NCBI GenBank assembly: GCA_963779615.1
Contig: CAVZZA010000005.1
Location: forward strand, 384,001 to 448,000
DNA length: 64,000 nucleotides
Direction: 5' to 3'
Source of the DNA: an uncultured Nitrososphaeraceae archaeon
GTDB lineage: Archaea; Thermoproteota; Nitrososphaeria; Nitrososphaerales; Nitrososphaeraceae
In this document: positions 24,857 through 44,963 of the stretch, in pieces
Layout: each line of letters starts with the position of its first letter
Numbering within the stretch: the first letter of the stretch is position 1
Notes under the pieces: model-generated
The model's database searches: none
Seen by the model: only the letters and a program-made list of their open reading frames with translations
What the model was told of the DNA's origin: nothing
Program-made: the position numbers and the translations under genes

Positions 24857-25725
24857 ATTAATAAGTCGGAAAGTTATAAATTGATGATATAAAAATTACA
24901 AATGAAAACAAAAATAATTAAATAGTATACCATACATACAAAATAATCAAGAGTTATAATAAAGGAATATAATTTTACTTAAAAAAATTCAAAATAAATT
25001 AACATTATTTGTTTTCAAACTGCTTATATCATATGTTTGAATCCTATCAATAGGAATAAAAGATGAACGATGGTGATTTAAACATTATTTGGGTTTGTAC
25101 CCAATGTAATCAGAATTTTCTGTTCTATTCAGATATTCAAGACCATAAATCTGGGACAGGGCATTCAAAGATATACAAGTTTGACTTGTTGTCGGGAAAA
25201 ATGATAGACAGGATTGAGATGAGGTAAAAATGCACCTGGACATGTAACACAAAAATAATGCAGATAATAGTAATGTTTCTTGCAAGGATCACATCTAAAC
25301 ACCCCTCAAGTCAAGTGGTGTTCAATTAATTCGTAATAGTGCTGTGTGTTCCCGCATAGGATGACGTTATAATGTGAATCAATCAATGCTTCACGTGCAA
25401 AATTGTTTGGTGTTCTTAACAAATGTATCATAGTTTTCCCGTTCATTGCGAAGTGGTTGTTTTTTGCAGTCTTTCCTTATTTCTTACACCCGTATGTTGG
25501 TTAGCCTTGTTTTAATAACAATACAAAAAATGCCAATGCTGAAACAGGGCAACAGGCACAAAATATAGGGATCCCGTTCCTTAAATTCCACGAAAGTGGG
25601 TTTGTTTGCTTTTAAACCGGTTGGAAAAATAAAATTTGTGATCGGAATCCCCGGTTCGATTAAAATGCAAAATAAAAATTAATATATGATAGACATAAAG
25701 AAGTCGATTAGTCGGTCAACGACAT

Positions 25726-25826
25726 GCCGGGGTCGCCTAGCCTGGTAGGGCGCAAGCCTGGAATTAAAAGCAACATAAAGCTTGTGGCCCGTGAGGGCCT
25801 CGAGGGTTCGAATCCCTCTCCCGGCG
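25726..25826 (+). tRNA. tRNA-Ser(GGA) with 15-nt intron (25764-25778) at position 37/38
   Basis: Acceptor GCCGGGG/TCCCGGC, discriminator G, anticodon stem CAAGC/GCTTG with CT-GGA-A, long variable arm GGCCCGTGAGGGCC, T-arm GAGGG-TTCGAAT-CCCTC. Confidence 0.93.
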
Positions 25827-25828
25827 CT

Positions 25829-26270
25829 GATTTTCTTTTTTAATAACAATATTACTGGTTTTAGTAGGTTTTGGAGGCATGAACAGGATACTTGGGAGAT
25901 GTGCTTCGAACCCTCGAGGCCCTCACGGGCCACAAGCTTTTGTTGGTCGGGCATGTGATTATCGCCCTCAAAATCGGGAATTGTGGCAACTGTGAACCTT
26001 TTTCTTACCGATTTTGGTAAGATCGATTAAGGATTTTTCATGGTTGACCTTACTGAATTTGGTAAGATTTTTCTGTCCCTCATTGTTTATTTTACTGCTG
26101 ATTATAGCAAGATCGGAGTCAGGAAACAACTTTAGCAACAATGGCAGCTCTTTTTCCAAGAGAATGGAAAGTTTCCTTTTGATAACGGACTTTAGTTTGT
26201 ATTCATAGGATTTTGCAATGTCCTTTTGGCCTTGGAGAAACTGGATTTCGGACCTGGAGAGAAGTGACAT
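25829..26270 (-). pseudogene. N-terminal half (intN) of an SSV-type split integrase
   Basis: ORF 25968-26270 points toward att; the same frame resumes after stops as MPPKPTKTSNIVIKKENQRRERDS across the att core, the frame that enters the integrase at 38305. Confidence 0.7.
25905..25940 (-). repeat. Perfect 36-bp inverted copy of tRNA-Ser 25777-25812
   Basis: ttcgaaccctcgaggccctcacgggccacaagcttt is the exact reverse complement of aaagcttgtggcccgtgagggcctcgagggttcgaa. Confidence 0.98.
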
Positions 26271-26610
26271 ATTCTAGAAAGATAGACAACAAAAAGCATT
26301 AAAAAGTTTAAGAAATAATCTGATTTTTAAATTGTCTTCCTTGCTGGAATTTACTTCTTTCCAATACACAGTAAAAAATGGATTAAATCACATATTTGCA
26401 AATGCAAACAAATCGCTTTCGAAATAGATTTATTTTTATTATTGATTAGGCATAGGGAGTAGAGGCAGTAATCGAATGTCTCTAATGTTTCTTAATACAA
26501 CTAACATAGAATTAGACTCCATGAGGTTAATAGGCCTTTTTTTTATAGCTAAATAAATTCTAAATGAAGGTTAATTTTGTATTAAAAAAGAGTTCTAGCG
26601 TCAATGGGAT

Positions 26611-26714
26611 CTATCTGACCTGTCTGACTACCATGGATTCAATATTTTTTAATTTTCTTTTACACTTGTTTTTTTATTGTTGGATATGTCATATGTGTCA
26701 GATATGTCAGATAG
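26611..26714. repeat. 18-bp imperfect inverted repeat around a T-rich spacer
   Basis: ctatctgacctgtctgac (26611-26628) vs gtcagatatgtcagatag (26697-26714), 16/18 complementary. Confidence 0.8.
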
Positions 26715-26718
26715 AGGC

Positions 26719-26946
26719 CTACATGTAGATTGCATAGCCTACCAGCTGGATTATGAATCCTGTAATCAGCAGCATTGCGCCCAGTCTAGCCAACTGTGTT
26801 TCTAGTTTCCTATGCCTTATTTCATGCTCACTGTATTTTGACATTTGCTCGATTGTTTCTGTTGACCTAAAAATCTTGCCGTAATACATAAGGAATGCCG
26901 CAATCACGTCGATAACCAATCCAGCCATTATTACAATGAATAACAC
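26719..26946 (-). CDS. Small two-TM membrane protein
   Basis: 75 aa, two hydrophobic helices joined by a charged linker. Confidence 0.6.
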   Translation of the reverse strand: MLFIVIMAGLVIDVIAAFLMYYGKIFRSTETIEQMSKYSEHEIRHRKLETQLARLGAMLLITGFIIQLVGYAIYM

Positions 26947-27036
26947 CGTGCAAAATACTTGAAGAGAATATAAATACCAATTTGCCGATTTCTGAAGTCA
27001 TTTCGCATAGCTGGATGCCAGAACAACAGCAATTAC

Positions 27037-27460
27037 ATGGACAAAACATTGGACCATATGGGGAAAGAGAGAAAGAGAGAGGACAGCAATGAAAGACGCA
27101 GACAGGTTACACTTCACTCATTCAGGAGATTTGTGAAAACCACCATTTCTGATATTGGGTATGCAGACTATTCGGAGTATTTCATTGGGCATTTCGGCTC
27201 CACGTATTGGAGAAAAAAGGAATCAGAAAATGCCGAATTATTCAGGGAAATAGAGCCTTATCTCACGTTTTTAAACATACCCCAATTGGAAAGACAGGGT
27301 GCCTGATATCCTGAGCAAGGTAACTGAGTTGGAGGAGGTGAACCAGTCCCTGAGAGAGCGGGACAAAAGCAAGGACGACGCCATAGCAATGATCTCAGAC
27401 CAGCTTTTAACAGTAACAGAGAGACTGAATGAACTGGAAAGGAAGCAACAATTCGGATAA
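27037..27460 (+). pseudogene. XerC-type tyrosine recombinase C-terminal fragment
   Basis: TLHSFRRFVKT (HxxR), YFIGH..STYW (H, Y); coiled-coil tail continues after a frameshift near 27303; N-terminus absent. Confidence 0.8.
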
Positions 27461-27782
27461 AATAAAAAATCCTGTTATGCTGTTTTCTTTGTTAAATCAA
27501 GCATTATAGGCTTTATACCCGTATAATTATTTCCCTGTTTTTTATCTATCATTGTATCATTTGTTTCATTATATGCTAGTTATCGTAGTATCTTTTGTTG
27601 CTATTGATAGTCATGTATGAAAAACATTGATAAATCATATTGTAAAGATCTGATAAACATTCTCCATAAATTTATAGTATAAAGATTATGCTTACTTTTT
27701 CTGGTTAACAGACTCCAATAAAATGTCAGGTAACAACAGTCCTACTTCTAATTATACCAAAAAATGTATGTGAGTTTTAACT

Positions 27783-28384
27783 ATGAACAACACAAAAAAC
27801 ATTTTGCTTATGGCAGCGATAACGTCATTACTAATAATGGGAACAAGCATAGTCCCAATGCAGTCATATGCAGACAGGGACAATGACAACGACAAAAAAA
27901 CCAATGACTTTAAACCCTCAATAAGCGCAAGCTATGAATCAGACAAAAAAAGCGCAAGCCAACACCAGGACCAGGACAACTTCTGCTACAGGGGCGACAA
28001 CGAATGTGAACAAGCCAACCAAGGACAACAGATAGCCGGCAAGGACAATGAAGTAACCGGGTTCACTGACCAAAGCGAGAATATCCAGCAGTCATTAATC
28101 CCAATACAACCTGGAACAGGAACAGGAAATGGGACAACGCCAACGCCAACGCCAAAAACCTGTGTAGAATGCATTACAACTCTTCTTACAACACCAGAGA
28201 TAAATGAAGCCAAGAGAATTCTTTTTGTACAGGTTCACATACAGATGAACAATTATGTAATTTATTGGGCTCCTTATCCGCAGGGGAAGTTATAAACCTT
28301 TTAGAGGGATCAGGAGTTGACCCAACAATAGTTACTAAAGTGATAGAGTGCTTAAGATCTGTCGGAACAATATCTGGACCATAA
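27783..28384 (+). CDS. Secreted Q/N-rich protein with Cys-containing helical C-terminus (frameshift near 28225)
   Basis: Signal peptide ending QSYA; SQHQDQDNFCYRGDNECEQAN core; alternative frame gives DEQLCNLL...IECLRSVG to TAA at 28384; paralog at 44964. Confidence 0.7.
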
Positions 28385-28560
28385 CCATATTACTATCCAT
28401 TGACAAAAAGAATCGCCAAATAGCGACAAAAAGACACCTAAAACCATACAAACCTGACCATTCAATAGGATAGGCAGGCAACACTCCTCCTTTTTATTTT
28501 TATCAAGGTTCTTCTTATGCATGAAAAAGAATTTGTTTTTACTATGGATTTTAGAATTGC

Positions 28561-29397
28561 CTAATCGTCAAATAGTTCCTTTAGTCTTTTAATGCTTTCC
28601 AAATGGTCTTCAGAAATTCCATTATCGTATTTATAGTTCAATTGGGCTTGCATTGTTTCAGTAACTTTATCATCTACCTGCTTGTGTTTACTGGGTGATT
28701 CGAAGTTATTATCTTCAAGTGAATTATCTTCTTTTGCATTGTCTTTGATACCATTAAAATCAAAAGGATTATTAGAGTTTTCAGGTTTGTCAATACTTTG
28801 TCTTTCGACTGGGTTCCTATCAGTGTCTCGATCATTCTTATTTGGGTCTGTTCCCTTTGAGTGTAAAGAATCGGCATAACTTGAATCAAGCATGTCCTTA
28901 TCATAGAATTTTGATAAATTAGTTACAAAGGGCAAATCTTTTATCAAAAGGGTGTATGTCTTTGAAAGGCTGTGGAGTTCTTTTGTTGCGAGAATCTTTG
29001 TTTCTTTTGTTGTGTTTGTGTCCATCATTATTTTCCACATCTCCTTTTTTAGGTGCTCTATCTCGTCTATGCATTTTCTGTATGCCCCAACATATGCAAA
29101 ATGGTCCTTGGCCATATGATAATACCATTCCCTGTTTTCCTGCTCCTCTGCCTTCTTTAGGTATTCCATACAGGACCACTCTATCCATATCTTGGTCTTG
29201 GAGGCTATATACTGTTGTATACCCTTTAGGGTAAAGCCCTTTATGATTGCCTCCTTGTAGTTAAGCCTTACCAATTCTTTTTCTGTTCTTCTTAGTTGCT
29301 TCAATGACTTTACTCTCTTTAGTATTATTATCCTGTTGCCAAATATGTCTTCGTCTATTTCATTATAATGTTTAGAATTTTTTTCTGAAAATGCCAA
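28561..29397 (-). CDS. Hypothetical helical protein of the integrated element
   Basis: 278 aa intact ORF; its C-terminus EDHLESIKRLKELFDD recurs as a remnant near 45700-45760. Confidence 0.7.
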   Translation of the reverse strand: MAFSEKNSKHYNEIDEDIFGNRIIILKRVKSLKQLRRTEKELVRLNYKEAIIKGFTLKGIQQYIASKTKIWIEWSCMEYLKKAEEQENREWYYHMAKDHFAYVGAYRKCIDEIEHLKKEMWKIMMDTNTTKETKILATKELHSLSKTYTLLIKDLPFVTNLSKFYDKDMLDSSYADSLHSKGTDPNKNDRDTDRNPVERQSIDKPENSNNPFDFNGIKDNAKEDNSLEDNNFESPSKHKQVDDKVTETMQAQLNYKYDNGISEDHLESIKRLKELFDD

Positions 29398-29587
29398 GAT
29401 TATATTTATAAATATGTTGCAATAGAATATAGCCTTTTTGATTATTGCAATTATTTTTTATAACATGGTTAATATTATGTTACCATAGCAAATATCTTTT
29501 ATCTTTGGTTTAGTTACGAAGTATGAATTTTACCTTTTGGAATTTTTCCATATGATCACAACAATGCAAAAAGAGGATAGGATATAT

Positions 29588-29956
29588 TCATTTTATTTTT
29601 TGAAAATAATAAAATGAGTTCACACCACTGGCAAATGAAGATTCTTTGCCTTCGTCAATAGCCATCAGGCTATATCCTTCTTTTGTCAGGTCCTCAAATG
29701 CTATAATAAATTCAACCTGAGTTCCATATTTTCTTTGAAGAATTGCTATATACTCACTTTTGAACTGTATGACTCCGTCTTTGTCCCAATACTGCTTATA
29801 TGATCCAACTCTTTTTAGTAAAGCAGAATACCGATCTTTTTTAATTTGGTTAGAATCCTCATTATTGTTTTGCAGTTTATTGGTGGAACTGCCACAAAAA
29901 GAACAGAATTTTAAATTTTCAGCTATTTCCTTACCGCAAGTGGCACAAAAAGCCAT
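29588..29956 (-). CDS. Zinc-ribbon domain protein
   Basis: MAFCATCG-x8-FCSFCG N-terminus. Confidence 0.75.
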   Translation of the reverse strand: MAFCATCGKEIAENLKFCSFCGSSTNKLQNNNEDSNQIKKDRYSALLKRVGSYKQYWDKDGVIQFKSEYIAILQRKYGTQVEFIIAFEDLTKEGYSLMAIDEGKESSFASGVNSFYYFQKIK

Positions 29957-30822
29957 ATAGAACCGATATATTACAAATATAAAAATTCAACGATAAATTG
30001 ATTAATTCACCTATCGATACTAGTCACCCAAGTTATACGTTAGAGTAAAATGAATTTAAAACAGTTTAAAAGCACTCTTGCAAAACAATTCAAATCAATT
30101 AATAGATTTCTATATGTTGAATTTAGAAGAATCTATAGTTAGCAGGCAAATTCTCCATTAAAGAAATGGAGTTAAAGAGAAGATATAGAGAAATCAACCC
30201 TCCATGTTTCCTTTAGGTTATAAAATAAAGAAAAAATATTTGGTTAAGAATGCATATGTCTTCATTTACCGGATAGTATTGTCATTTATCAAGAAATGGA
30301 GAAAATTTACTCAGGCCAGCTCTTGCGGGTATTGTAATTATAATTATTTCTACTTTTTTCTTTGCAGCACAGAGCAACCCAAAACTTAAACCTTATTGGC
30401 CCTCTAATTTTTTGAATCCAGATACCTCAACAATTGTCAAATATGCGATACAAATAACATGAAGAATCACACTTGGAAGGTCAAAAATATGATTGAGAAT
30501 GATTATAAAAAAGAACGTTTGAGTTAATAAAGAATGGTAATTATAAAACAGTGTCTTTATTTGATACTTCTTAATTGTATTGGATAATCAATTGAATTTT
30601 GGATTTTATTTACATTTTTTAGTTGCTTTAGTTGCGTTTTAAAAAACCTTTGCGTTATTTGATTCTTCGGTTATGCTATTCTCTTCAAAATTTATTTCGT
30701 ATGGTTTTTTAACCAAAGTATGTTTGGTTGAATTGTTAAAACTCATTGCTTTTATTTTATAAATATTTGGAATTTTGTAAGGTGACTTCTTATATGCATT
30801 TATACAAAGTATTGTAACATAA

Positions 30823-32034
30823 ATGAGTAATTTAATTTACAAATGCAGTTTCTTTAACTTTAATATAACTGTGTTTGTTCTAATTGTTTTTTCAATATTG
30901 GCGATTGCTAATCCACTCCATTTCCCTAATGCATTGGCTCAATACCCATTAATCGATGTTTTGAATTTGATTAGTAAGGGTCATGACCTATATTATTTAA
31001 GTAATTATACTGAAGCCATAAAATCCTTTGACAAAGCCTTGCAACTAGATTCCTACTAATACAGATGCTTTGATTATGAAAGTTTACACTCTGGGTGATC
31101 AAGGGCAATTACTCTGAAGCCACAAAACTTTTAGATAAAGTGTTGAGTATTGATTCTGGTAATGAAGATGCATTATCCATAAAAGAATTAGCCATGTATA
31201 GTTTAGATGGTCATAATGAATCAATAGGATCTTATGATAAAATATTGGCTGTAGATCCTAATGATAGGGATGCTTTGTATGATAAAGGTATTGAGTTAAG
31301 AAGTTTTGGCAACTACACTGGAGCTTATAGAATACTTGGATAGAGTATTGGCTTTTGACCCAACAAATCCACAGGTCTTGAATAACAAAGGCGACACTCT
31401 AAATAAGTTGGGCAACCTCACAGGGGACTGATAAAATATTATGACAAAGTCTTAAAGATATACCCGAAAGAAGATAGAGCCTTGATTAGCAAAGGTGACG
31501 CCCTATATAATTTGGGCAACTACACTGGAGCAATAGAATGCTATGACAAAGCATTGTTGCAGGGCAAATCCTAAGAATAGAGAGGCTTCAGAACACAAAG
31601 CCTATGTCTTGTCTGTCATGGGTAACCAAACTGGATCGATAAAATCCTATGATAGAATCTTGAGTCTTTATCCAAATTATACAGATGCTTTGAAAAACAA
31701 AGGCCTTGGTCTATTAAACCTGCATAATTATACTGAAGCCATAAAATCCTTTGACAAAGCCTTGTTGGCAGATCCAGAGGATACTAGTGCCTTAAAACCC
31801 AAAGCATATGCATTATTTGCCATGGGCAACTACACTGGAGCTATAGAATACTATGACAAAACATTGGACATAAACCCCAAAGATACCATAACCTTGATTA
31901 GCAAAGGTGACGCCCTATCAAAGTTAGGCGTTTATGATGGATCTATTGCATACTATGACAAAGCCCTGACTATAGATCCTGAAAATCCGGTTGCGTTGAA
32001 GTTCAAAGGCGAAGCATTGAAAATGCTAAAATAG
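30823..32034 (+). pseudogene. Secreted TPR-repeat protein, fragmented
   Basis: Signal peptide then repeated NYTEAI..FDKAL..DP units over ORFs 30823-31059, 31095-31343 and 31543-32034, broken by frameshifts. Confidence 0.85.
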
Positions 32035-32342
32035 GATTGAAAATGATAAATTCTGGTTTTTCGGTAGGAAAATATCATAATGCAATTTATACAGTAATTC
32101 ACTATTTTGATACTGCAAACATTTTCACAACTTTAACACAGTCGGCTGCCATGACGAATAGTTATAGAAGAATGTTATATAACCATTGTCAAACGCAACT
32201 AGTTGCGAATTGAAAGTTACTCATTTTATTGAATATGCAAATGTTTAACAAATCTAATGTGTGAAAGGCACGTTAGAATCCATATTAATTTTTAACATTG
32301 ATTTTTGACGGTTGTTTTTAAACTGTCAGTATAAAAAAAGTT

Positions 32343-33454
32343 TTACTTTGATATATAATTATAAATCTCAGGAATCTCCTTTTTCAGTTTATCTTTGCCT
32401 ATAGGCAAGAAACCTTTATCGTTTCGCAGATTTTCTTTTATTTTTTGATATGGGTTAAAATCCAGTTTTTTACAAATATCACATTCATAAAGCCATTTTA
32501 GCAGTATCAAAGTAATTTCTTCATTATTCAATTTTTTGATATTTTTTAGATATGGTATTAATATCCTCCACAAACAAAACTTTCTATGATCTTTCAAAGG
32601 AGTTTTCAGCAGCTTTCTATCCAATCAATTCTGCTCTTTGTTTGGCCATGGCAATAAGAATAATTATTCGTTTTTGCTCTTTCTTCCTCCTCTATTTTTT
32701 TTGATAACAAATACGCATAGAAACTGCCAATCAGGTTGAGCATAGTGGTCCTGTTTCCACTCCATTTTTGCAATGCTTTGACTTGGGATTTTTCTGGACT
32801 TAACCCTTTGGCAAGACATTTTGAATTAAAAGAGCCAGGAACCCTTGCAAGGCAGGACTTTAATGAGGGGTTATTGCACTTGTCAGCATAGCCACTAGAC
32901 AAAAATTCCTTTGTGAACCTCAAAAACCTGTTGCTTGGGTTTTCAACAAAGTTAAAATCCTGTATGTTTTCCAATCTTAAACTGTCAATTGGCTGGTATA
33001 CATGATATCCATTACCGGTATGCAAAACAGTTGGGTTTGAGCAATCGAGTTTTTCCTTAATGTTTTTTAGTGTTTTGTCTAATGCTGTTTCTGCATTCAC
33101 ATAATCATTTTTATCAATATCTATGAAAATGAAGTCCGGCAGTGGATTATCAATTGAAGGAAATGCGTTTATCTTGCAATCTATATAATTGGCTTTTTTA
33201 AATTCCGATATTATGTCTTCTAAGTTATAAACATTGATCTGTTTTCCTTTTGTTCTAAAAGTGGATATAGTTCTGGGAAATAACGGGGTCTGAAAGTGAC
33301 CCAAAATGAATTTAGTGTTTTCAGCAATGCCTTGAAAGTAGTGGCAAGGGTTGTTTTTTCTTACAGCAGTAGTAGCAGCATTAGCAGCAAGATACTGATC
33401 AAAAGTTGCTGAAAGAAATTTTCCCCCTACTATTATATTTTTTAAATCTCCCAT
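32343..33454 (-). CDS. AEP primase fused to a PriX-like domain (frameshift near 32615)
   Basis: FIDID (motif I), HTGNGYHVY (motif II), GYAD..NNPS.KSCLARVPGSFN; ATA GAA AGC lacks one A to join WIEKLLKTPLKDHRKFCLWRILIPYL (PriX-like). Confidence 0.8.
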
Positions 33455-33494
33455 TTCTTTCCCTTAGGTTTTAAGTTGTATTTCTCCAAGTCTA

Positions 33495-35328
33495 TCAATC
33501 CCGGATATGCAATTTTGTTTGGGTGTTTGGAGAATCATTATGTTTTTCATATTCTTTAGGTTTATCGAAGAAATCAAAATCATTACAGTAATAGCATTCA
33601 AATGATTCTTTTTCTTGTTCTATTTCTTCTTCTTGATCATGTGTGTTTTGGTTGCCAAAATCATACAGTGTGTTAGGGGGGTATTTTTCTTGCAGCACTA
33701 TTGGGGATTCCTTTTTATCGTCAATCTCCACATCGGGTGTGAAACCGTCCCTTAAATCTTGAAACTCTTTGCTTAAAAACCATGAGAATTTCGGCTTTAA
33801 CTGTATTGTCTTTTCAGAGTTTTCATTCTCACATTCCAACAAGTCCACAATTCCAAGTCCCTTGAATTCAACCATGGTTCTTTTTGCTGTGGGTTTTGAT
33901 ATGTTCAATGAAAATTCAATTTGAGAAGAGGACAACTTGCCCTCTGCATTCAGTAGCAAATCAAGTATCCTCACCCTTTCAATTGACGCGGTTGAGAGGA
34001 CCACCTTAATGATTAGTGGAATGTCCTCAATGGTGATATAGTTTCTTCCTTGGTTGAGTGCAGATCCCCTTGCAAGGTTTCTGAGTCTGGTTATTGCCCT
34101 GTCCGGCTCCTCGATGATTGGAAGAGAAAAAGCATATTCCGTTCCCTGAGTCTCTTTGGTCTCCCATGTCTGAAGAATGCCCCTTAATGGCGACAATAGG
34201 TTTGCCAGTTTGATTATTATTCTTATGGCTTTTTCCTCGTCTTTGGTTTCTTCCCATATAATTTTTAATGGAAGCCCTTCTTTACCAACTTCTACATTAT
34301 TGTTTTCCCCATTGTTTGAATCAATCTCTTTTATAGGACATTTGTTAAACCATTCAAGATATTCTTCCAACTTGTTTTGCATTTCTCTGACTTTTTCCTG
34401 AAACTGTTTGCCCATTATCTGATCAGATAGTATTGGTCTTCTGATTTCTCTGTGATTTTGGGATTCTAAAAAAATACAGTTTTGGTCCAAGGGTGGAAAG
34501 ATACTTGTGCACCTTTCTTGATATTTCCACTGCGGCACCTATCCACACGAACATATACTCACCACTATACCCCCTGTGGCCTTGCGCTCCAGTATCGCTT
34601 TCATAGCCCTTGCCGTCCAAAATCCTAATGAGAATCCCAAGCAGTTCAATCAACTCTTCGTCTTTCTTGGCAAAGGTGGGTGACAACTCGGGCGTGAGGA
34701 ACAGTTTGTTTTTGATTTTGGGAAGCAAATCTATTTGGGGCAGGTTTTCCCTTTTTACTGCAGTGCTGTGAGTAACAAAGGATTTGGCACTAAAGTTGTC
34801 AGAATAAAAAGTGTGTTTTGTGTTTCTGAATAGTTCTATACCCAGTGTCTTCATTGAACTTGGCAATCCCAACACTATTCCGGCAAACGGCAGGGTGCAA
34901 TTATCAATATGCAAAATGTTTTTGACAGCAAGTTCAAACTCCAAAGACTCCCAGAGGTTTGGAAAGTTTTTTTCTGCTATTTCTTTTAGTTCATGGTAGT
35001 GTTGAATCAAAGTGGTTTTCCATTCTTCAAAAGTTACGTTTTCTTCACATGCTTTCTCAGGGGATTTATTGATATCTCTTTCCAATCCATAAAGTTGATA
35101 TAGGTTTTTTGAAATGGCGAAAATCAACTCTTCCTTTATTTTGTTATCTTTTGTAAAGTTGTCAAGGTTGTTTCTAATGTTATCAATTGTAGTCATAAAG
35201 TCAGCACTCATTTTTGTCTTTATGGTGTTAGCATTTATCTCAATAGCAATTTCATTATCCTTTAAAAAAAAGTTTGTAACTCCCTTGTTCTTTAATGATT
35301 CTGAGAGTGGAAAATCCTTAATAGTCAT
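33495..35328 (-). CDS. MCM-like AAA+ ATPase/helicase with wHTH and terminal zinc finger (frameshifted near 34430)
   Basis: GLPSSMKT Walker A variant, LFLTPEL Walker B, ILDGKGY, EEPDRAITRLRNLARG sensor-2 helix, wHTH, FECYYC; split over ORFs 34423-35328 and 33495-34538. Confidence 0.65.
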
Positions 35329-35506
35329 ATTGAACCCTTGACAATATTCTTAAAATATCGGACTGTTTATCCTCTATTCTCCGTATTACCTTGAATAATT
35401 CAGTGATTATAGGTCCAATAGTATCTATCTGGTTTATTGAAAGTGGTCCTTGAGAAGATTCAAAAGGTTTATAACCTTTTTTGTCAGTGTTGTTTATGTA
35501 ACCCAT
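35318..35506 (-). CDS. Small coiled-coil hypothetical protein
   Basis: 62 aa ORF between the AbrB-like gene and the ATPase, overlapping the ATPase start. Confidence 0.5.
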   Translation of the reverse strand: MGYINNTDKKGYKPFESSQGPLSINQIDTIGPIITELFKVIRRIEDKQSDILRILSRVQYDY

Positions 35507-35524
35507 TTTATACCACTTTTTTGT

Positions 35525-35725
35525 TTATGCTTTTTCTACAATGATTTGGTTAGAGTTTTGCCTTACTTTAACAAAGTCTCCTTTACCAATTCCTATGTTC
35601 AAAGCATATAGTTTGGGAAGAACAATTGAAAAAGAATGCTCACCCATTATTCCCTGAACTTTTCTATACTGATATTCCATTGATTGATTTTCTTTTGAAT
35701 TTTTGAAATTTTCGTTATTTACCAT
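35525..35725 (-). CDS. AbrB/MazE/SpoVT-family DNA-binding protein
   Basis: RKVQGIMGEHSFSIVLPK.YA.NIGIGKGDFVKV.....IIVEK; first gene of the replication operon. Confidence 0.85.
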   Translation of the reverse strand: MVNNENFKNSKENQSMEYQYRKVQGIMGEHSFSIVLPKLYALNIGIGKGDFVKVRQNSNQIIVEKA

Positions 35726-35936
35726 AACTTGGTCATATACATAAATAAAGAAAAAGAGGTAAAGATTATTGGGGGGCTACCTATTCTAACACAAAAAAAA
35801 GGATATCTGACATGCTCAAAAAACAATTGCAACAGAAGAGGATTTATAGCAAAACGTTTTCGTAAAACCCGAGTTCAAATCCCTAGTAAAAAAAATATTG
35901 ATACAATAGTTAAAGTCTCTAGACTATAACTCAAAG

Positions 35937-37101
35937 TTGTTTTACAGACTATATGAATTTTTAACATACCTGCCTTTTGATAAGAAGCTTGAGGATAAAT
36001 ACAATATTGCCAAATATCAAAGATTTGTCCCCTTTTCGCCTCACACTATAGAAGAAACTATAAGTTTTGAAGACAGATTCAAAAAAATTCTTTCAAAAAA
36101 ATTTGAAAAATACAATAAAAAAAATTCAAATAGTTTGGAAGATAATAAGATAATAACTCCCGCAAAATAATATCGATAACAAAACTCTATACAAACTAAA
36201 TAGAACCATAGACAAAGAGACCGAAAAGAATGTCCTTAGATCGTCCATAGCCTGCCTTTATTATTCCATATCATTTGCTGCATTGAGAGATTTGTATGCT
36301 GAAATGGAGATAACCGGTTTTCAAACACCTTGCTCTCAAGAACTTAAAACTAAAATAGACGAAATTAATAGAATAATCCCAAAATGTCTCTTACTTGTTA
36401 GTTTATCTGGTGAATATCTGGTAGATAAAAGATATCATATTCAGGTGAATAAAATACGGAAATTAATGATAGATTCTTGGGAATTTGGATATAATGCGGC
36501 GTCGACAATAAATTCTTCTGAGTGGTTAATTTGTGAAAAATGCTTAAAGAAGGGACGCAAATCACATTTTGAAAAAGAAGAATGTGCTGTTTGCAAAAAT
36601 TCCAGGAAGAAAATATCAAAGATAAACCCTAAATCAATTCGAACAATGAAATTCAACATTATTAATGATATAAGGCATTACATTTTTTATTATTGTCGTT
36701 TTTTAGATTTTATGAGCAGACTTACAGAACAAATTAAAAACAATGAGCATATTAGAAAGGAATATTTATCGTATTTTAAAGGACATGAGGAACAAATACT
36801 CAAGTCAGAGCATTCTTATCTAAAACAGCCTAGTTATTATATGTGCCATTACGATACGGCAAATCCCTCAAAAAGAAAAACATGTTCATTAACCAAAAAT
36901 GACATTTTGAATGTAAAAATAAACGATAATGAATATAATAAATTAATTATGGACGCTGTTGAAAAAAAACCCATTGATAAAGGTCCTGAAAGGCTAATGG
37001 CAATTCTAGATAAATACAGGTATCCAAAAGAATTCGCTTTAGAAAAAACTTTTATAGATTTTATGAAAATTTCATTAAAAAAATCTGACAATAAAAAGTA
37101 A
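35937..37101 (+). pseudogene. Hypothetical protein with CxxC pairs, probably fragmented
   Basis: ORFs 35937-36170 and 36283-37101 on the same strand; CEKC...CAVC. Confidence 0.45.
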
Positions 37102-37453
37102 TATTATTTCTATTATAAAAAAAGAAGCAATTGGTCTAATTATCAAAGTATCAAAATAAAAGGCTGTCACTATTTTCCAATTTATTTATTTTTTAAGTTA
37201 ATGTTATAAGTTGACCATAGTCATTGACAATAAAATCATTTTTTTTACCTTTTAACGGTTTAGTAATAAATTAATATAAGATAACTATCTACTAAGCATA
37301 ATAATTTAATATAGCAACCAAAGTTAAAGGGTCTTTTAATCTAATCAATATAGCAATATTATTGTTCGTTAGTTACAAAAAATGTATTTTTTTAAGATTA
37401 ATACATTTTAAATATCTATTCATGATGGATTAAATTATAGTATAGAATCACCA

Positions 37454-38305
37454 TTAATCAACAGTCAATAATTCTTTAAACAATGAATCCAAAACTGGTT
37501 TTACCTTGTTTGTGATTATCGCATTCACGTCTGGCCTATAGTAATGATTTACAAATATGGAGGAGGGTGTTCTTCCTTGCAGCAAATCGATTATCTCACG
37601 CTCTATACCGTTATTCCTTAAATATGTTGCAAAGACCTTACGACAGTAATACATGTTCGTTTTTAATCCACCTTTTTTGAATATTTTTCTAAAAGAGGTA
37701 TAGTTTAAAGCTCCGACAGTATTTTGTGCCGTCTCCAAAATTTCCTCATTGATTATGCTTAAATACGCTTTTTTTGATATCCTTAGAAAAACATTTGGAA
37801 ATCTATAGTGCAGCAACAACATGCGTTTCTTATCTATATACTCACAGGGTTTATTTTTTATCAGATTAATGGCATTGTAGGATTCATCAGGCCGCAGGCC
37901 AGTCAGTGTGTTAAACAACACAAGGTTCCCGTATTCTTTTGGCAGTCTATGTATGGAATCCCTTATCCATTTAACCATGGAAGAGTAGTTTTGGTCCTCA
38001 TTGCTAAAGATCTTTTCAAAAACGTCATAACCGCTCTTTTTGGGCCACTTTAACTGGTACCTTTTGATTAAATCCAGCCATTTGTCATAAACTCCCAGGT
38101 ATTTTGACAAGGACGACAGAGACTTCATTGCGTGTTGCCTTGTCTCCACAGACAGGTTTAACAGGCATTGGGCGTCTTCCTTTTCCAGAACACCATAAAA
38201 TTTCTTGACATATTGGAGTTTGTTCCTTATGGTATGCGGGCTTTGCTTTTGGGCCATAAGATAGTCTTTAAAGTTGCTCCACAAGTCATTGTCATACACA
38301 GTCAT
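37454..38305 (-). CDS. SSV-type tyrosine integrase, C-terminal half (intC)
   Basis: TGLRPDE (R), SKKAY (K), YYCRKVFATYL, IDLLQGR, NHYY (Y); frame stays open upstream through the att core (RRERDSCNSIAKSM). Confidence 0.92.
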   Translation of the reverse strand: MTVYDNDLWSNFKDYLMAQKQSPHTIRNKLQYVKKFYGVLEKEDAQCLLNLSVETRQHAMKSLSSLSKYLGVYDKWLDLIKRYQLKWPKKSGYDVFEKIFSNEDQNYSSMVKWIRDSIHRLPKEYGNLVLFNTLTGLRPDESYNAINLIKNKPCEYIDKKRMLLLHYRFPNVFLRISKKAYLSIINEEILETAQNTVGALNYTSFRKIFKKGGLKTNMYYCRKVFATYLRNNGIEREIIDLLQGRTPSSIFVNHYYRPDVNAIITNKVKPVLDSLFKELLTVD

Positions 38306-38327
38306 TGATTTTGCAATGCTGTTGCAA

Positions 38328-38346
38328 GAATCCCTCTCCCGGCGCT
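38328..38346 (+). repeat. att site 2 (tRNA-Ser 3' end copy)
   Basis: Exact match to 25810-25828. Confidence 0.95.
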
Positions 38347-38705
38347 ATACTCCAGGAGACAAGCAATTGTATTATATATTAATAAATTCACAATGTCAAT
38401 AGTTGAGTCACAGCGGTAAAGAGCCAAAACCTTCATTAAATCATTCAAACCACACCATCAATCCACTACAAAGCAATATAATAGATGATAACCGCAATAT
38501 TAAAAATAATCAAGAGATTTGTTTTCATTGATTGGCTTAACCGTCATAATATCTAGAGTTTAGTAATGAGTATTAGATTACCTAAATTTTTAAAAGATAT
38601 CTTATACAAAAATCACACTTAAAATCGTTGACATGGTCCGGGTTGGGTGAAAATCATGAGGATTTCCACAGTGGTCCGATGGAATATTAAAATTCAAAAT
38701 GAATA

Positions 38706-40620: not shown

Positions 40621-42079
40621 CTATTTGACGACCTCAAAGGTACCCATCATGCCAAAGTCCCCATGGAACATCAGGTGGCAGTGAAAGACGGATTTTCCCA
40701 CAAAATCATCAAATGGGATTCGGATGACCACTTCACCTTCAGTTGGAAGAATAACTGTATCTTGGTATCCGTGAGCGTCATATGGTTTTCCGTTAACTGA
40801 CATTACCTGAAAGTCATTTACATGGATATGAAATGGATGGATGTTGCCAGATGAGATTTTATCAAGGTTTACCAACTTCCACTCCTCTACAGTTCCAAGT
40901 TTAGGTTTGATGTCTATTCTGTTAGGATCAAACTTCGTGTTATTTATCGTGTATATCCAATCTCTATCGTTTGATGAGAAATTAAGGACTCGATAATTAG
41001 AGATGTTCGCATTACTCAGGTCTCTCTTTGGAATTAAGCTTGTTGGAAGGGTATCTGCAGGTTTCACATCTTTTTGGTTACCTTGTATATTTACAGTCGC
41101 AACGTGTAAATCGTACGGTGCAGTAAAGGGGTTACTAGGAGCTCCTAATGGAATAGACCCGTTCCCGTTGGCAGTCACCAGTACATCATACCGTTTTCCA
41201 GAAGGAAAGAAAAGAGTATCATTGTTCCATACCTCCCAAACCGGACTTCCATCTTCTGCTATAACATGGAATTTGTTGCCGGGGAGTTCAAGTGTGAGTT
41301 CATTCTCAGGACCGATGTTGGCAAGGCGCCATAACTGGGTCTCGCCTGATTTGATGTTGATAACTGGATTGACTTCCCCGTTAACGGTCAGGCGTTCATG
41401 GCCTGACATTGTGTTACTCAAATCATGCGTAGTAACGAATAGATTGTCAAATGGAAAATCCTTCATGGCAAAGGTCTGTGTTGTGATATTCTGTAATGGC
41501 GCTGGCAATAACTTTTCTAAACCTTCAACAATAAACAAGCCAGACAGACCTGCCGAAACTTGTCCATAAGAAAGCATATGCAAATGTGAATGATACCATA
41601 ACGTGCCTGGATCGTGATCTTTTGGAATATCGACAGAATAATGCTGTGTCTTGCCAGGCGCAACATCCAGAAATACATTATCAGAAGTATTTCCAGGAGA
41701 CACATGAATTCCATGGAAATGGAGGTTGGTAGACTCATTGAGATTGTTTACCAAATCAATCTCCACTCTGTCTCCAGGATAGACATGCAAAGTAGGTCCC
41801 ACGAGAGAACCATTGTATACCATTCCAGTGATTGTCTTGTTGTCAACTTTACCTATCTTGTAATCTGCAACGAGTGTAGTTTGCAAAACACCTTCTTTGC
41901 TGTATACGTCCTGAGACTTTGAAAAGTTCATCCCAGCCAAAGGACGAGGATTGATTTTGGGCAAGGGCGTTATGGTCTGAAGATTCAAATGCAAACACCA
42001 TCACCAAAGCAAACATCGTGATGGAAAAAGCGGATATTAAGCCACAAGTGTTAATGGAGGACCTTATTGTGTGGATCAT
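40621..42079 (-). CDS. Multicopper oxidase; signal peptide separated by a frameshift near 41940
   Basis: HFHG, WYHSH, HPFHIH and HCHLMFHGDFGM copper motifs; signal peptide in ORF 41849-42079 joins after removing one T in TCC T TTG GCT. Confidence 0.9.
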
Positions 42080-43339
42080 TTAGTTAAATCCACCTTGTTT
42101 TGGTCTTTCCAGATAATTAGTTTTATGTTCAATTCCTACATTGTTCCGTTTACGAATAAAGTAGGCTTTTCTATTATGACTCATTAGTAATGGTCACTTA
42201 TAGCAATTGCTATTTAACGCTTGTGTTATTTATTGTAATTGTTTTACTAAATTTACAAAAGATAAAAAATTCGTTATGGCTACAAGTGTAAAATGAAGAA
42301 TATGATTCTGTGTGTCCCTTGACCAATATTTTTTGGGTATTTTGGAGAAGTAACAGAATAATTTAAACCCATGGGGTAGAAAAAGAATTAAGAAAAGTTT
42401 AGTTTGGACAATTGGTGTCAGCATGTTTCTACCTAGAAGTATGGATCTTAAAACCAACAGAAGATTTGGAGTTGAGGCCTTTTCGGTTCAGAGAAAGTGA
42501 AAAAATAATATTCAATTAATATGAACACGAAGAAGTCTAGCATACCACCGATATATAAAATACAAGATAACTTCATTGTGATGTTGAACAAAATGCCAGT
42601 CCTTCAAATAGACATTTCATGAAAGAAGATATCATATTCTAAATTCTATAGTTCTAGAATTACAGAAATACTTTGAAATAGGACAATAAAAACGAACTTT
42701 CTGTCATTTACAAATAAAGAGGAACGGATGAAAAACAAAATAGATCAATCAAAAATGACATTTGAAGAAGTTAAAGAAATAATTTGCAAAAAGGAAATTT
42801 ATGACGAGCACCCCAATTATAGAACTAATAAAATTAACAGGCTATGGAATTAAAAAAGATATGAGGACAAATCAAGTTATAATAACTTAAGAAAATAACA
42901 ATGCATGATCTATTATTTTTAGATATAGCCTTTTTTATCTTAAAACCGTTATTATCATATTTCATAATTTTGATTATGTAAAAACGTTATTCTTAAAGGA
43001 CTATGAAACAATTCCTTGTTTTTCTGATCCACTGACCATGGAGAATGCTCAAAATCAAATATTGCATAATATTTCTCATTTCATCAAATTTTTTCTCCAA
43101 TACATCAAATCAGAAATTTATACTGATTGTTCATCAACTGCGGATGGATTTTTTTTCTGAATCTTATCAACTAAACCGTTGTGTTGCAAGAATCTTGAAT
43201 TTTTCAATATTATTTTTATTGGCAAACTTAACACTATCTTGCATAATGTCAAGAAAACAAATTGTATATAGAATTTTAATATTATTATAACTACTAGGCA
43301 AATTTTGTATTACATTAAATTATAAATATCTCATCACCA

Positions 43340-44204
43340 TTAATCGATAGTTATTAATTCCTTAAACAATGAATCCAAAACGGGTTTTATCATATTTGTG
43401 ATTATCTCACTAATATCTGGTCTATAATAATGATTAACAAATATCGTTGAAGGGGTCCTTCCTTGCATTAGATCGATTGTTTCAGATTCTATTCAATTGT
43501 TCCTTAAATAGGTAGCGAAAATTTTGCGGCAATAATACATATTCGTTTTTAGGCCACATGCTTTGAATTTTTTTTTAAAAGAAGTATAATTTAAAACCCG
43601 ACAGTATTTTTTGCCGTTTCCAAAATTTCCTTATTAGTTATGCTTAGGTATGCTTTTTTTGGGACCCTTAGAAAAACATTTGGAAACCTGTAATGCAGCA
43701 ATAGCATGCGTTCCTTATCTATATACTCATCGGGTTTAATTTTTACCAGTTTAATGGCATTATAAGATTCATCAGGTCGCAAACGAGTCAGTGTGTTAAA
43801 TAATACAGGATTCCCATACTCTTTTGGCAATTTATGTATTGAATCCTTTATCCATTTAACCATGAAAGGATAGCTTTTGTCTTAATTGCTAAAGATCTTC
43901 TGGAAAACTTCATAACCGCCTTTCTGGGTCCACTTTAACTGATACCTTTTGATCAAATCCTGCCGTTTATCATAAATTCCCAGGTAGTTGGATAAAGACG
44001 ACAAGGATTTCATGGCGTGTTGCCTTGTTTCTCCTGATAATGTTAAAAGCACCTCGGCATTGTTAGATTGAAGCACCCCCATAGGATCTTTTGGCATGCT
44101 GGAGTTTGTTCCTCATGGTGTGATGGCTTTGTTTTTGACCTATCAGATAGTCCTTATAATCATTCCATAATTTAGTATCATTGTTAATATTATTGTTACC
44201 AATA
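43340..44204 (-). pseudogene. Second SSV-type integrase C-half, frameshifted
   Basis: Paralog of 37454-38305 (RRERDSIG..LWNDYKDYL, TRLRPDESY, YYCRKIFATYL, IDLMQGR) broken by several indels. Confidence 0.9.
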
Positions 44205-44223
44205 GAATCCCTCTCCCGGCGCT
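44205..44223 (+). repeat. att site 3
   Basis: Exact gaatccctctcccggcgct, followed by gattttcttt as at 25829. Confidence 0.95.
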
Positions 44224-44654
44224 GATTTTCTTTGATTTTTTATGCTGAAATTATTGGTTTTAGTAGTGCTTTGAGGCATGCAGTTATTGGGAGATTGATT
44301 CGAACCCTCGAGGCCCTCACGGGCCACAAGCTTTAGCTGGTCTGACATGTCATTATCCCTCTCAAAATCGGAACTATGGCAACTGTCAACCTTTTTCTTA
44401 CCGATTTTGGCAAGGTTGGTTAAGGATTCTTTATGGTCGATCTCACTGAATTTGGTAAGATTTTTCTGATCCTCACTGTTAATTTTGCTGCTGATTGTAG
44501 CAAGTCACAATCAGGAAATAACTTTAGCAATAATGGCAGCTCTTTTTCGAAAAGAATGGAAAGTTTCTTTTTGATAAAGGACTGTATTCATAGGATTTTG
44601 CAATGTCCTTTTGGCCTTGAAGAAAATGGATTCGGACTTGGAAAGAAGCGACAC
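44224..44654 (-). pseudogene. Second intN half
   Basis: Homologous to 25829-26270; reads KIGKKKVDSCHSSDFERDNDMSDQLKLVAREGLEGSNQ... toward att3. Confidence 0.75.
44297..44335 (-). repeat. Perfect 39-bp inverted copy of tRNA-Ser 25776-25814
   Basis: gattcgaaccctcgaggccctcacgggccacaagcttta. Confidence 0.98.
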
Positions 44655-44963
44655 TTTCTGGATGGACAACAAAAAGCATTAAAATTTTTAAATTACAGTA
44701 TGATCATATGTTGGAATCAATCAAATTTTTGGATTAATATCCCCTTTTTTATCCTTGAAAAAAGGCATATTATCGTAGTATCTTTATTGCTATTGAAGGT
44801 AAGTGTAAACAAAATTGTTAAATTACTAGGCAAAGTTATGCTAAACATTCCTATTTACATTCATAGTATAAAGATCATGCTTACCTTTTCAGGTAAACAA
44901 ATTCCAATAAAATATCAGGGATCAACAATCCTATTCCAGTTATACAAAAAATGTGAATGAATT

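What the first reader, a model, noticed from the sequence alone, without database searches (positions are those of the whole stretch)
25777..25940. 'tRNA mirror': the element carries a perfect inverted copy of its target tRNA inside the integrase N-half
Seen: 25905-25940 is the exact 36-bp reverse complement of tRNA-Ser 25777-25812 (3' anticodon stem, variable arm, T-arm to TTCGAA), with 92 nt between the arms that contain most of the att core. The mirror covers the target sequence just 5' of the core, which att copies lack, and degenerates where the core begins (gcacatctccc vs tccctctccc). It lies within the intN region (KLVAREGLEGS). Established: SSV-type attP sites hold a direct tRNA copy; I know of no description of an additional inverted one. 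Inference, three models: (a) a nucleic-acid guide or homology arm helping a tyrosine integrase recognise its tRNA; (b) an integration-dependent hairpin: only after insertion can the intN transcript, running antisense into the tRNA, fold into a 36-bp stem that stops or neutralises antisense RNA and reports the integrated state; (c) a cruciform or inversion substrate controlling excision.
Basis: partly seen in the sequence, partly recalled or inferred. Interest (0 to 1): 0.92.

Follow-up and report, generated by a model that had tools for sequence, protein, structure and literature searches.

The report
Inverted tRNA copy in integrase arm
A mobile element sitting in an archaeal tRNA-Ser gene carries a back-to-front partial copy of that tRNA next to its insertion site, and related elements show that such copies are inherited and then overwritten by the neighbouring tRNA gene, which explains the perfect match.

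Summary
The 36-bp perfect inverted repeat (25777-25812 / 25905-25940) is real and far beyond chance. The left arm lies in an intron-bearing tRNA-Ser(GGA). The right arm belongs to a 12.5-kb integrated element (25829-38346) with an SSV-type tyrosine integrase.

The mirror is element-borne: 14 tRNA-Ser sites with no Int(N) N-domain hit lack it, while 13 of 13 related element arms carry it, with 20 to 37 bases of perfect match or about 75-85 % identity. It is more conserved than its flanks.

In a uniform survey, an inverted copy of the target tRNA was significant in 14 of 21 loci where Int(N) converges on a tRNA. These cover Ser, Thr, Glu, Val and one intron-bearing tRNA, in two genera. It was significant in 0 of 20 co-directional loci.

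Strict co-variation fails: three elements beside a tRNA with a different variable arm keep the old mirror. One metagenome contig is identical to one of these over 440 of 448 columns. All eight differences form a patch inside the mirror that is the exact complement of the resident tRNA. This indicates short-patch gene conversion.

The perfect match is therefore best read as a by-product of conversion. The reason the mirror is kept (integrase half-site, RNA hairpin or relic) remains open.

The parts
25726..25826 (+). tRNA-Ser(GGA) gene with anticodon-loop intron; the integration target (attB part of attL)
   Evidence: Rfam RF00005 43 bits; ARAGORN with introns, Ser gga i(37,15); the only GGA isoacceptor ARAGORN called in the genome
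25777..25812 (+). left arm of the inverted repeat: last intron bases, 3' anticodon stem, variable arm, 5' T-stem and T-loop up to TTCGAA
   Evidence: I1, 36/36
25810..25828 (+). att core in attL (19-bp direct repeat, T-loop to one base past the tRNA 3' end)
   Evidence: same 19 bp at 38328-38346 and 44205-44223; 0 matches in 100 shuffles
25829..25904 (.). spacer of the P' arm. It starts with T runs (a likely stop signal for the tRNA; recalled rule for archaeal polymerases). It holds one TTAC-N8-GTAR palindrome at 25852-25867. Its last 14 bases (25891-25904) are the degenerate continuation of the mirror.
   Evidence: spacer mean pairwise identity 0.53-0.61 among relatives
25905..25940 (-). the mirror: on the minus strand (integrase sense) a tRNA-sense copy of 25777-25812
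   Evidence: Homologous copies in 13 of 13 related arms. Mean pairwise identity 0.78-0.82 against 0.34-0.61 for the flanks.
26005..26065 (.). two palindromes TTACC/T-N6-GGTAA (26005-26020, 26050-26065), candidate arm-type protein-binding sites inside the Int(N) coding region
   Evidence: D1; 7 matches at 4 places in 64 kb against 0.8 expected; 3 of the 4 places are in this arm. Similar palindromes occur in relatives.
25968..26270 (-). Int(N) N-domain ORF (100 aa). The frame is broken before the mirror by a 1-nt insertion relative to the second copy and to G373.
   Evidence: Homologues in 52 of 401 genomes of the order. Model: short helix plus long helix, pLDDT 78. No Pfam or PDB sequence match.
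37454..38305 (-). Int(C): catalytic part of the SSV-type tyrosine integrase, 283 aa. Its frame stays open upstream through the core (..NQRRERD..).
   Evidence: PF16795, E 3.9e-6, 27.3 bits against cut-off 27
38328..38346 (+). att core in attR. The DNA beyond resembles the empty-site flank of one relative.
   Evidence: 38348-38407 aligns to the flank downstream of the G060 tRNA-Ser at 77 % over 60 nt, E 2.5e-7; 1 of 5 genomes tried.
43314..44691 (-). second, decayed integrase locus in unsplit (attP-like) order: broken Int(C) 43314-44156, core 44205-44223, mirror 44299-44335, N-domain remnant up to about 44691
   Evidence: stops inside; 80-84 % identity to element A

Best explanation
Anatomy (shown). 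The mirror is a module of the element's attachment site. It is an inverted, partial DNA copy of the target tRNA gene, including a few intron bases. It lies in the arm between the att core and the N-terminal domain of an SSV-type ('suicidal') integrase gene.

Inheritance and updating (shown and supported). The mirror is inherited within the element lineage. Once the element sits beside the tRNA, the two copies form an inverted repeat, and the tRNA gene overwrites stretches of the mirror by short-patch gene conversion. The 36/36 identity here is therefore a by-product of proximity and homology. It is not a designed guide, and the integrase family does not need it to find a tRNA.

Origin and function (inferred). 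The mirror occupies the place, relative to the N-domain and the arm palindromes, where sense-oriented relatives in the same genome carry their real 43-45-bp att core (anticodon loop to 3' end). It most likely began as such a core. The block that stays constant in nearly all copies (GAGGGTTC plus T-loop) is the tRNA half-site next to the crossover point. It probably still binds integrase as an accessory site.

Why it stops at the core (inferred). The sharp decay where the core begins would keep the mirror from being a full inverted att site. SSV-family integrases can invert DNA between such sites.
For: Element-borne:
- 7 of 22 tRNA-Ser(GGA) sites tested had a significant mirror.
- The 14 sites with no Int(N) N-domain hit and no significant mirror include G107 and G227, which by eye keep arm-like remnants.

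Inherited and conserved:
- A homologous copy is present in 13 of 13 related arms, in two diverged subfamilies.
- Identity is 0.78-0.82 against 0.53-0.61 and 0.34-0.43 for the flanks in subfamily 1.
- It is 0.72 against 0.56 and 0.42 in subfamily 2.
- Copies include intron-end bases, so they come from gene DNA.

Gene conversion:
- L159 and G293 are identical in 440 of 448 overlapping columns (host flank, tRNA, spacer, arm).
- All 8 differences fall in one 14-column patch of the mirror.
- In L159 that patch is the exact complement of the resident variable arm, including a 2-nt length change.
- G248's mirror carries its host's two-base variable-arm variant over 25/25 bases.
- Perfect tracts of 20, 25 and 36-37 nt end abruptly.

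Not a general guide: 7 of 21 convergent loci lack any mirror.

Position equals the old core: own-genome sense-type elements at C3:368697 and C3:265728 run N-domain, palindrome, then a sense core of 45 and 43 bp.

Half-site:
- GAGGGTTC is the least variable block of the mirror.
- A further inverted GAACCCTCA sits at a fixed -44 from the core end in 5 otherwise unrelated attP-like sequences.

Inversion by SSV-family integrases between inverted att sites: passages of PMC5495485 and PMC7253208.
Against: - Conversion cannot explain why G373, G266 and G293 share and conserve a mirror variant that matches no resident tRNA. Something else constrains the sequence.
- A codon-position test for protein-level constraint was not significant: minority counts 11, 8, 17.
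- The accessory-site idea has no binding data.
- The fixed GAACCCTCA motif is absent from both copies in this window and from G015.
- In the second genus the mirrored part is the 5' half of the tRNA, far from the T-loop crossover. That does not fit a T-arm half-site, and it has no sense-core counterpart that I could show.
- L159 is a metagenome contig that I could not check with reads.
- Kinship among the genomes inflates all counts.
Confidence: 0.55

Rival explanations
1. Integration-dependent RNA hairpin. The Int(N) transcript runs antisense into the tRNA. The sense copy upstream pairs with that antisense stretch. This would mask it from the cell's tRNA or pre-tRNA, or shape the 3' end of the message. 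Selection for pairing, helped by conversion, would keep the match.
For: - Mirrors were found only where Int(N) converges on the tRNA: 14 of 21 convergent loci against 0 of 20 co-directional, with direct-copy controls at 0 of 41.
- The mirrored part differs between lineages (3' part for Ser, 5' half in genus g5). This fits pairing better than one protein site.
- In G094 a second sense copy next to Int(C) pairs with the antisense core.
- The minus-strand RNA of 25726-25990 folds at -116.2 kcal/mol against -72.3 +/- 4.8 for shuffles, z -9.1. This follows by construction from the repeat.
Against: - No transcript data: the only RNA run found covers the tRNA alone.
- Elements with an intact Int(N) frame (G373, G015, G197) have imperfect mirrors, about 75-85 % identical.
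- 7 of 21 convergent loci manage without a mirror.
- The co-directional tRNAs keep their own TATA-like upstream DNA and may not be the targets, so the contrast is weaker than the numbers suggest.
- The association with orientation is equally expected if the mirror is an old sense-type core.
Confidence: 0.2
2. Pure relic. The mirror is a former sense-orientation att core with no present role. It is kept recognisable only by conversion from the conserved tRNA and by lying in a reading frame.
For: - Its position matches the core of sense-type relatives.
- Conversion is shown.
- It is heavily decayed in G137, and the off-site remnant is down to 33/36.
- It is absent from some convergent lineages.
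Against: - It persists in 13 of 13 arms across two subfamilies whose flanks are near saturation (0.34-0.61 identity).
- Non-tRNA variants are shared and conserved in G373, G266 and G293.
- Target-matched mirrors occur at several different tRNAs in a second genus.
Confidence: 0.15
3. Cruciform or inversion switch. The repeat lets the 92-bp spacer flip, or extrudes a cruciform, to control excision.
For: SSV-family integrases invert DNA between inverted att sites in vitro (passages of PMC5495485 and PMC7253208). The repeat exists only after integration.
Against: - The mirror lacks the crossover part of the core: 5 of 10 and 8 of 10 matches after TTCGAA in the two copies.
- A flip would cut the tRNA off from its 3' end.
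- No flipped form appeared in any of the 13 arms.
Confidence: 0.04
4. Nucleic-acid guide or homology arm that helps the integrase find its tRNA.
For: Mirrors match the tRNA that each element occupies.
Against: - The mirror is inverted relative to the core.
- It is absent in 7 of 21 convergent loci and all 20 co-directional loci.
- It is mismatched with the resident tRNA in G373, G266 and G293, which are nevertheless integrated at the same core.
- Matching arises after integration.
Confidence: 0.03

Closest known systems
SSV-type ('suicidal') archaeal integrases and their intragenic attP (SSV1, pTN3, pT26-2; one split SSV1-like integrase, NitEve-E3, noted in Thaumarchaeota)
   Same: A tyrosine recombinase of Pfam PF16795. 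The att core is identical to the 3' end of a tRNA gene. The integrase gene is split into Int(N) and Int(C) by integration. The att is short, as reported for Thaumarchaeota (passages of PMC8371274, PMC6563490 and PMC7253208).
   Different: None of the passages I read mentions an additional inverted tRNA copy in the arm. Here the integrase reads antisense to the tRNA, and the core is only 19-20 bp.
Phage lambda-type attP with arm sites (recalled textbook knowledge)
   Same: The attP extends well beyond the core, with repeated protein-binding-like motifs on the arms (TTAC-N8-GTAA palindromes).
   Different: The extra tRNA-like site resembles the core-type half-site, not a separate arm-type sequence. 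No arm-binding domain or accessory factor has been shown here.
Integrase-catalysed inversion between inverted att or tRNA sites in Thermococcales (pTN3, PMC5495485)
   Same: The same integrase family, and inverted tRNA-derived sites on one molecule.
   Different: There, both sites are complete and inversion occurs. Here the mirror lacks the crossover segment, and no inverted form was seen.
Folded single-strand att sites (CTX phage attP hairpin, integron attC; recalled)
   Same: Inverted att-like sequences close together in a mobile element.
   Different: In the free attP of this element the inverted partner of the core is only an 11-of-13 match. The long repeat forms only with host DNA after integration. 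There is no evidence of a single-stranded stage.
Concerted evolution of inverted repeats by gene conversion (for example plastid inverted repeats; recalled)
   Same: One arm is kept identical to the other by recombination rather than by selection on each base.
   Different: Here the donor is a host tRNA gene and the recipient a mobile-element arm. The tracts are only about 13-37 nt long.

Membership tests
SSV-type (suicidal) tyrosine integrase element | catalytic domain of the archaeal phage integrase family | tested here: met
   PF16795, E 3.9e-6, 27.3 bits against a curated cut-off of 27, so only just above it. Homologues beside tRNAs in the same genome.
SSV-type (suicidal) tyrosine integrase element | att core lies inside the integrase reading frame, so integration splits the gene into Int(N) and Int(C) | tested here: inconclusive
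   Met in relative G015: one frame runs from the N-domain through the mirror to the core (..NQRRERD..), and the same frame runs into Int(C) at attR. In this window Int(C) is open through the core, but the N-domain, mirror and core lie in three frames. This is either decay or assembly indels.
SSV-type (suicidal) tyrosine integrase element | direct repeats of a tRNA 3' segment bound the element | tested here: met
   19-bp core at 25810-25828 and 38328-38346. Flank beyond attR resembles the empty site of G060.
SSV-type (suicidal) tyrosine integrase element | catalytic residues R..KxxR..Y | not tested
   No alignment to characterised integrases was made.
Lambda-like heterobivalent attP | arm-type sites distinct from the core, bound by an N-terminal arm-binding domain | tested here: inconclusive
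   Palindromes are enriched (7 matches against 0.8 expected) and recur in relatives. The N-domain model is helix plus long helix with no family match. Binding is not testable here.
Invertible segment bounded by inverted recombination sites (FLP- or shufflon-like) | two complete recombination sites in inverted orientation | tested here: not met
   The mirror stops at TTCGAA. The next 10 bases match the core at 5 of 10 (25895-25904) and 8 of 10 (second copy).
Folded single-strand att site (CTX / attC type) | an inverted repeat within the free attP that rebuilds the duplex core | tested here: not met
   In the attP-like copy only 11 of 13 bases of the core have an inverted partner, 62 nt away. 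The G094 element does have a 30-bp repeat of this kind.

The most novel reading that the evidence does not exclude
Integrase elements that enter a tRNA gene 'head-on' systematically carry a sense copy of part of that tRNA. This copy is a functional, self-updating mimic of the target. Gene conversion from the host tRNA keeps it matched in each new host. The resulting integration-dependent palindrome then either masks the antisense-tRNA part of integrase transcripts or sets the direction of recombination. That would be a new control layer for archaeal 'suicidal' integrases, and a case of a mobile element using host-templated conversion to tune its own site.
Probability: 0.25. Interest if true: 0.8.

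Novelty: new variant of a known kind. Interest (0 to 1): 0.6.

Why it matters
Attachment sites of archaeal SSV-type integrases are usually described as a single direct tRNA-derived core inside the integrase gene.

Here a second, inverted tRNA-derived module recurs across at least five target tRNAs in two genera of ammonia-oxidising archaea. It is conserved above its flanks. It can be caught being rewritten by the host tRNA gene in two otherwise identical sequences.

This gives three things:
- a concrete, testable attP architecture for elements that have never been studied at the bench;
- a natural example of very short-tract gene conversion in Nitrososphaeria;
- a caution that perfect element-to-target identity can arise after integration and need not mean guiding.

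Three full-text searches and passages of four papers gave no description of it. Supplementary tables of those papers were not seen and may list att sequences.

Tried and rejected
- RNA evidence. The one run offered (X1, soil metatranscriptome contigs, 0.08 of the words) covers only 25703-25828. That is a relative's tRNA with an empty-site flank, so it says nothing about Int(N) transcripts.
- Free element. A scan of viral contigs with Int(C) found no relative. I did not repeat it with an alignment.
- N-domain. No Pfam hit at E<=1 beyond noise, and no PDB sequence hit below E 0.37. The model was not sent to a fold search.
- Protein-level constraint on the mirror peptide (..LVxREGxEGS..). By eye, third positions seemed to vary more. 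The count (11, 8, 17) is not significant.
- Wobble-compatible mismatches as a sign of RNA pairing. I counted them by hand on G015 and G197 only. There were too few, and I dropped it.
- Symmetry of the repeat about the palindrome at 25852-25867. It is within 1 nt here but off by about 5 nt in G373 by hand count, so I treat it as coincidence.
- Hairpin plus U-run terminator. It fits this window, where CUUUUAAUU follows the stem. It does not fit G094, where an A-run follows.
- T-loop G/A 'tracking'. The mirror matches the resident allele in 5 genomes and not in 3, which is no better than chance.
- Sense-type Ser(GGA) elements. None was found beside the 23 tRNA-Ser loci checked.
- Gln element. No second att copy was found within 50 kb.
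- Host flank. Only 1 of 5 empty sites aligns to 38348-38407.
- produced a faulty stitched alignment. It was discarded and redone.
- Rfam at gathering score did not call the intron-bearing tRNAs of L135, L137 and L140. Their identity rests on ARAGORN and on likeness to tRNAs of this genome.
- The L137 result (30/30 mirror) comes from G467, flagged unpublished. Without it the survey reads 13 of 20 convergent loci.
- G431, G441 and G260, also flagged unpublished, appear only as tRNA hits.

Full report
OBSERVATION

The arms are 25777-25812 and 25905-25940, 36/36 complementary and 92 nt apart. The left arm lies in a tRNA-Ser(GGA) gene at 25726-25826 that has an anticodon-loop intron (Rfam 43 bits; ARAGORN with introns). 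Default ARAGORN missed it. The reverse-complemented tRNA aligns to the downstream DNA with score 80, against a maximum of 26 in 200 shuffles.

ANATOMY OF THE LOCUS

A 19-bp core, running from the T-loop to one base past the tRNA end, is repeated at 25810-25828, 38328-38346 and 44205-44223.

Left of the second core, on the minus strand, lies a 283-aa ORF (37454-38305) that matches PF16795, the archaeal phage integrase family, just above its cut-off. Right of the first core, also on the minus strand, lies a 100-aa ORF (25968-26270). Its first ~55 residues are a domain found next to tRNA genes in 52 of 401 genomes of the order.

The element is therefore 25829-38346, of the split-integrase (SSV) kind, with Int(N) reading towards the tRNA. 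The rest of the element is mostly ORFs without family matches. The DNA after 38346 resembles the empty-site flank of one relative.

A second, decayed copy stands at 43314-44691 in unsplit order: Int(C) remnant, core, mirror, N-domain. It is 80-84 % identical to the first copy, yet its mirror is identical over the 36 bases and matches the tRNA at 45 of 47. A third remnant elsewhere in the genome has 33/36.

In this window the N-domain, the mirror (..KLVAREGLEGS..) and the core lie in three different frames. A 1-nt insertion separates the first two. In G373, G015, G299 and G197 one frame runs through all of them, and in G015 it continues into Int(C). So 'inside Int(N)' is true of the family, while this copy is broken or mis-assembled at homopolymers.

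The arm also holds three TTAC-N8-GTAR palindromes. The window has 7 matches at 4 places against 0.8 expected. Similar palindromes recur in relatives.

IS THE MIRROR HOST OR ELEMENT?

I tested 22 tRNA-Ser(GGA) sites from relatives.
- 7 have a significant inverted copy 68-128 nt downstream.
- The 14 sites with no N-domain hit and no significant mirror include two (G107, G227) that by eye keep arm-like remnants.
- One site (G137) has the element and only a decayed mirror.

Counting attP-like and array copies as well, 13 of 13 related arms carry a homologous mirror. These are G000 x3, G373, G266, G293, G248, G299, G290, G015, G197, G137 and L116. It is not an assembly artefact.

IS IT CONSERVED?

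In subfamily 1 the 36 columns have mean pairwise identity 0.78-0.82. The spacer has 0.53-0.61, the next 63 columns 0.34-0.43, and the N-domain region 0.55-0.63. In subfamily 2 the mirror has 0.72 against 0.56 and 0.42 for its flanks. The least variable block is GAGGGTTC. A codon-position test gave no clear sign of protein-level constraint (11, 8, 17).

DOES IT FOLLOW THE TARGET?

Across targets, partly yes. I ran a uniform survey of 95 non-redundant Int(N) loci, of which 41 had a tRNA called 190-750 nt downstream.
- An inverted copy of that tRNA beat all 200 shuffles by at least 5 points in 14 of 21 convergent loci and in 0 of 20 co-directional loci.
- The direct-copy control was significant in 0 of 41.
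- The positives cover Ser-GGA (6 loci), Thr-CGT (3), Thr-GGT (1), Glu-CTC (1), Val-GAC (1) and an intron-bearing tRNA (2, one of them from the unpublished G467).
- Outside Ser, the mirrored part is the 5' half of the tRNA.
- The negatives are Gln x3, Arg-CCG x2, one distant Val and one Thr-GGT.
- The co-directional tRNAs keep TATA-like upstream DNA and may not be the targets, so that contrast is weaker than it looks.

In G094 the element is bounded by a 20-nt identical core (T-loop to 3' end). It carries two sense copies: tRNA 5-45 on the Int(N) side and tRNA 30-72 on the Int(C) side.

Within Ser, tracking is mixed.
- Perfect tracts occur in G000 (36-37 nt), G248 (25 nt, including its host's two-base variable-arm variant) and G299 (20 nt).
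- G290 has 22/23, G015 33/39 and G197 34/42.
- G373, G266 and G293 sit beside a tRNA with a shorter, different variable arm, yet share an older mirror variant.

HOW TRACKING HAPPENS

Metagenome contig L159 and genome G293 are identical in 440 of 448 overlapping columns, covering the host flank, tRNA, spacer and arm. All 8 differences lie in one 14-column patch of the mirror. In L159 that patch is the exact complement of the resident variable arm, including a 2-nt length difference. Point mutation cannot produce this. It is a recent short-patch conversion from the tRNA gene into the mirror. The shared runs between the tRNA and the unconverted mirror are about 10 nt, too short to confuse an assembler, but I could not check reads.

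ORIGIN

In two sense-oriented elements of the same genome, the order is N-domain, palindrome, then the real att core of 45 and 43 bp, running from the anticodon loop to the 3' end in the integrase sense. The Ser mirror has the same orientation, the same start (intron end or anticodon loop) and, in its degenerate tail, nearly the same end. This suggests it is a former sense core. I could not show a matching ancestor for the 5'-half mirrors of the other genus.

FUNCTION

This is inference only.
- A conserved GAACCCTCA at a fixed -44 from the core end occurs in 5 otherwise unrelated attP-like sequences. Together with the invariant GAGGGTTC in the mirror, it points to repeated integrase half-sites. 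The motif is missing from both copies in this window and from G015.
- The RNA hairpin is predicted trivially (-116 kcal/mol, z -9.1) and remains untested.
- SSV-family integrases invert DNA between inverted att sites (passages of PMC5495485 and PMC7253208). This gives a reason why the mirror should lack the crossover part of the core.

LITERATURE

Three full-text searches and passages of PMC8371274, PMC6563490, PMC7253208 and PMC5495485 mention no inverted tRNA copy in an archaeal attP. I read passages only. Supplements were closed.

VERDICT

- The perfect match is best explained by gene conversion acting on an inherited attP-arm module.
- The reason the module is kept is open.

Noticed in passing
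window 43314-44691: A second integrase locus in unsplit attP-like order, with stops in Int(C) and in the N-domain. It lies about 5 kb beyond attR of the first element. How it came to lie there (old tandem array or otherwise) is unclear.
   Followed up: partly
window 25955-25990: A 1-nt insertion in a short G/C run, relative to the second copy and to G373, breaks the Int(N) frame. A second frame change lies between the mirror and the core. This could be decay or homopolymer assembly error.
   Followed up: partly
L147 (G094) 8113-8203: At attR of a tRNA-Thr element, a reverse-complement copy of tRNA positions about 30-72 sits 14 nt from the direct core copy. The free attP would therefore hold a 30-bp hairpin-forming repeat of the core.
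   Followed up: partly
L116, L151, L153-L155, L160-L163: 44 nt before the core end: A conserved GAACCCTCA on the Int(C) side of attP-like sites, at a fixed distance, in five otherwise unrelated sequences. It is absent in this window.
   Followed up: partly
G000 C3:265728-265824; L135, L137, L140: tRNA genes with introns at unusual places (D-loop, T-loop) serve as att targets. ARAGORN mis-names several of them (for example Ser called Tyr in L039), and Rfam misses them at gathering score.
   Followed up: partly
window 27037-27306 (+): An 89-aa ORF whose sequence looks to me like the C-terminal piece of another tyrosine recombinase. Pfam gave no match at E 0.01.
   Followed up: no
window 31002-31964: Internal direct repeats (40 nt at 100 %; about 140 nt at 73-74 %) around a TPR-repeat gene inside the element.
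   Followed up: no
window 27783-28295 and 44964-45578: Paralogous small proteins with a hydrophobic N-terminus, one in each of the two element copies (about 80 % DNA identity). No family match.
   Followed up: no
window 40621-41994 (-): A three-domain multicopper oxidase gene between the two integrase loci.
   Followed up: no
window 26061-26270 (-) and relatives (alignment A1): The Int(N) N-domain is predicted as a short helix plus a 30-residue helix (pLDDT above 90 over the first 40 residues). It has no known family and was not compared by fold.
   Followed up: partly
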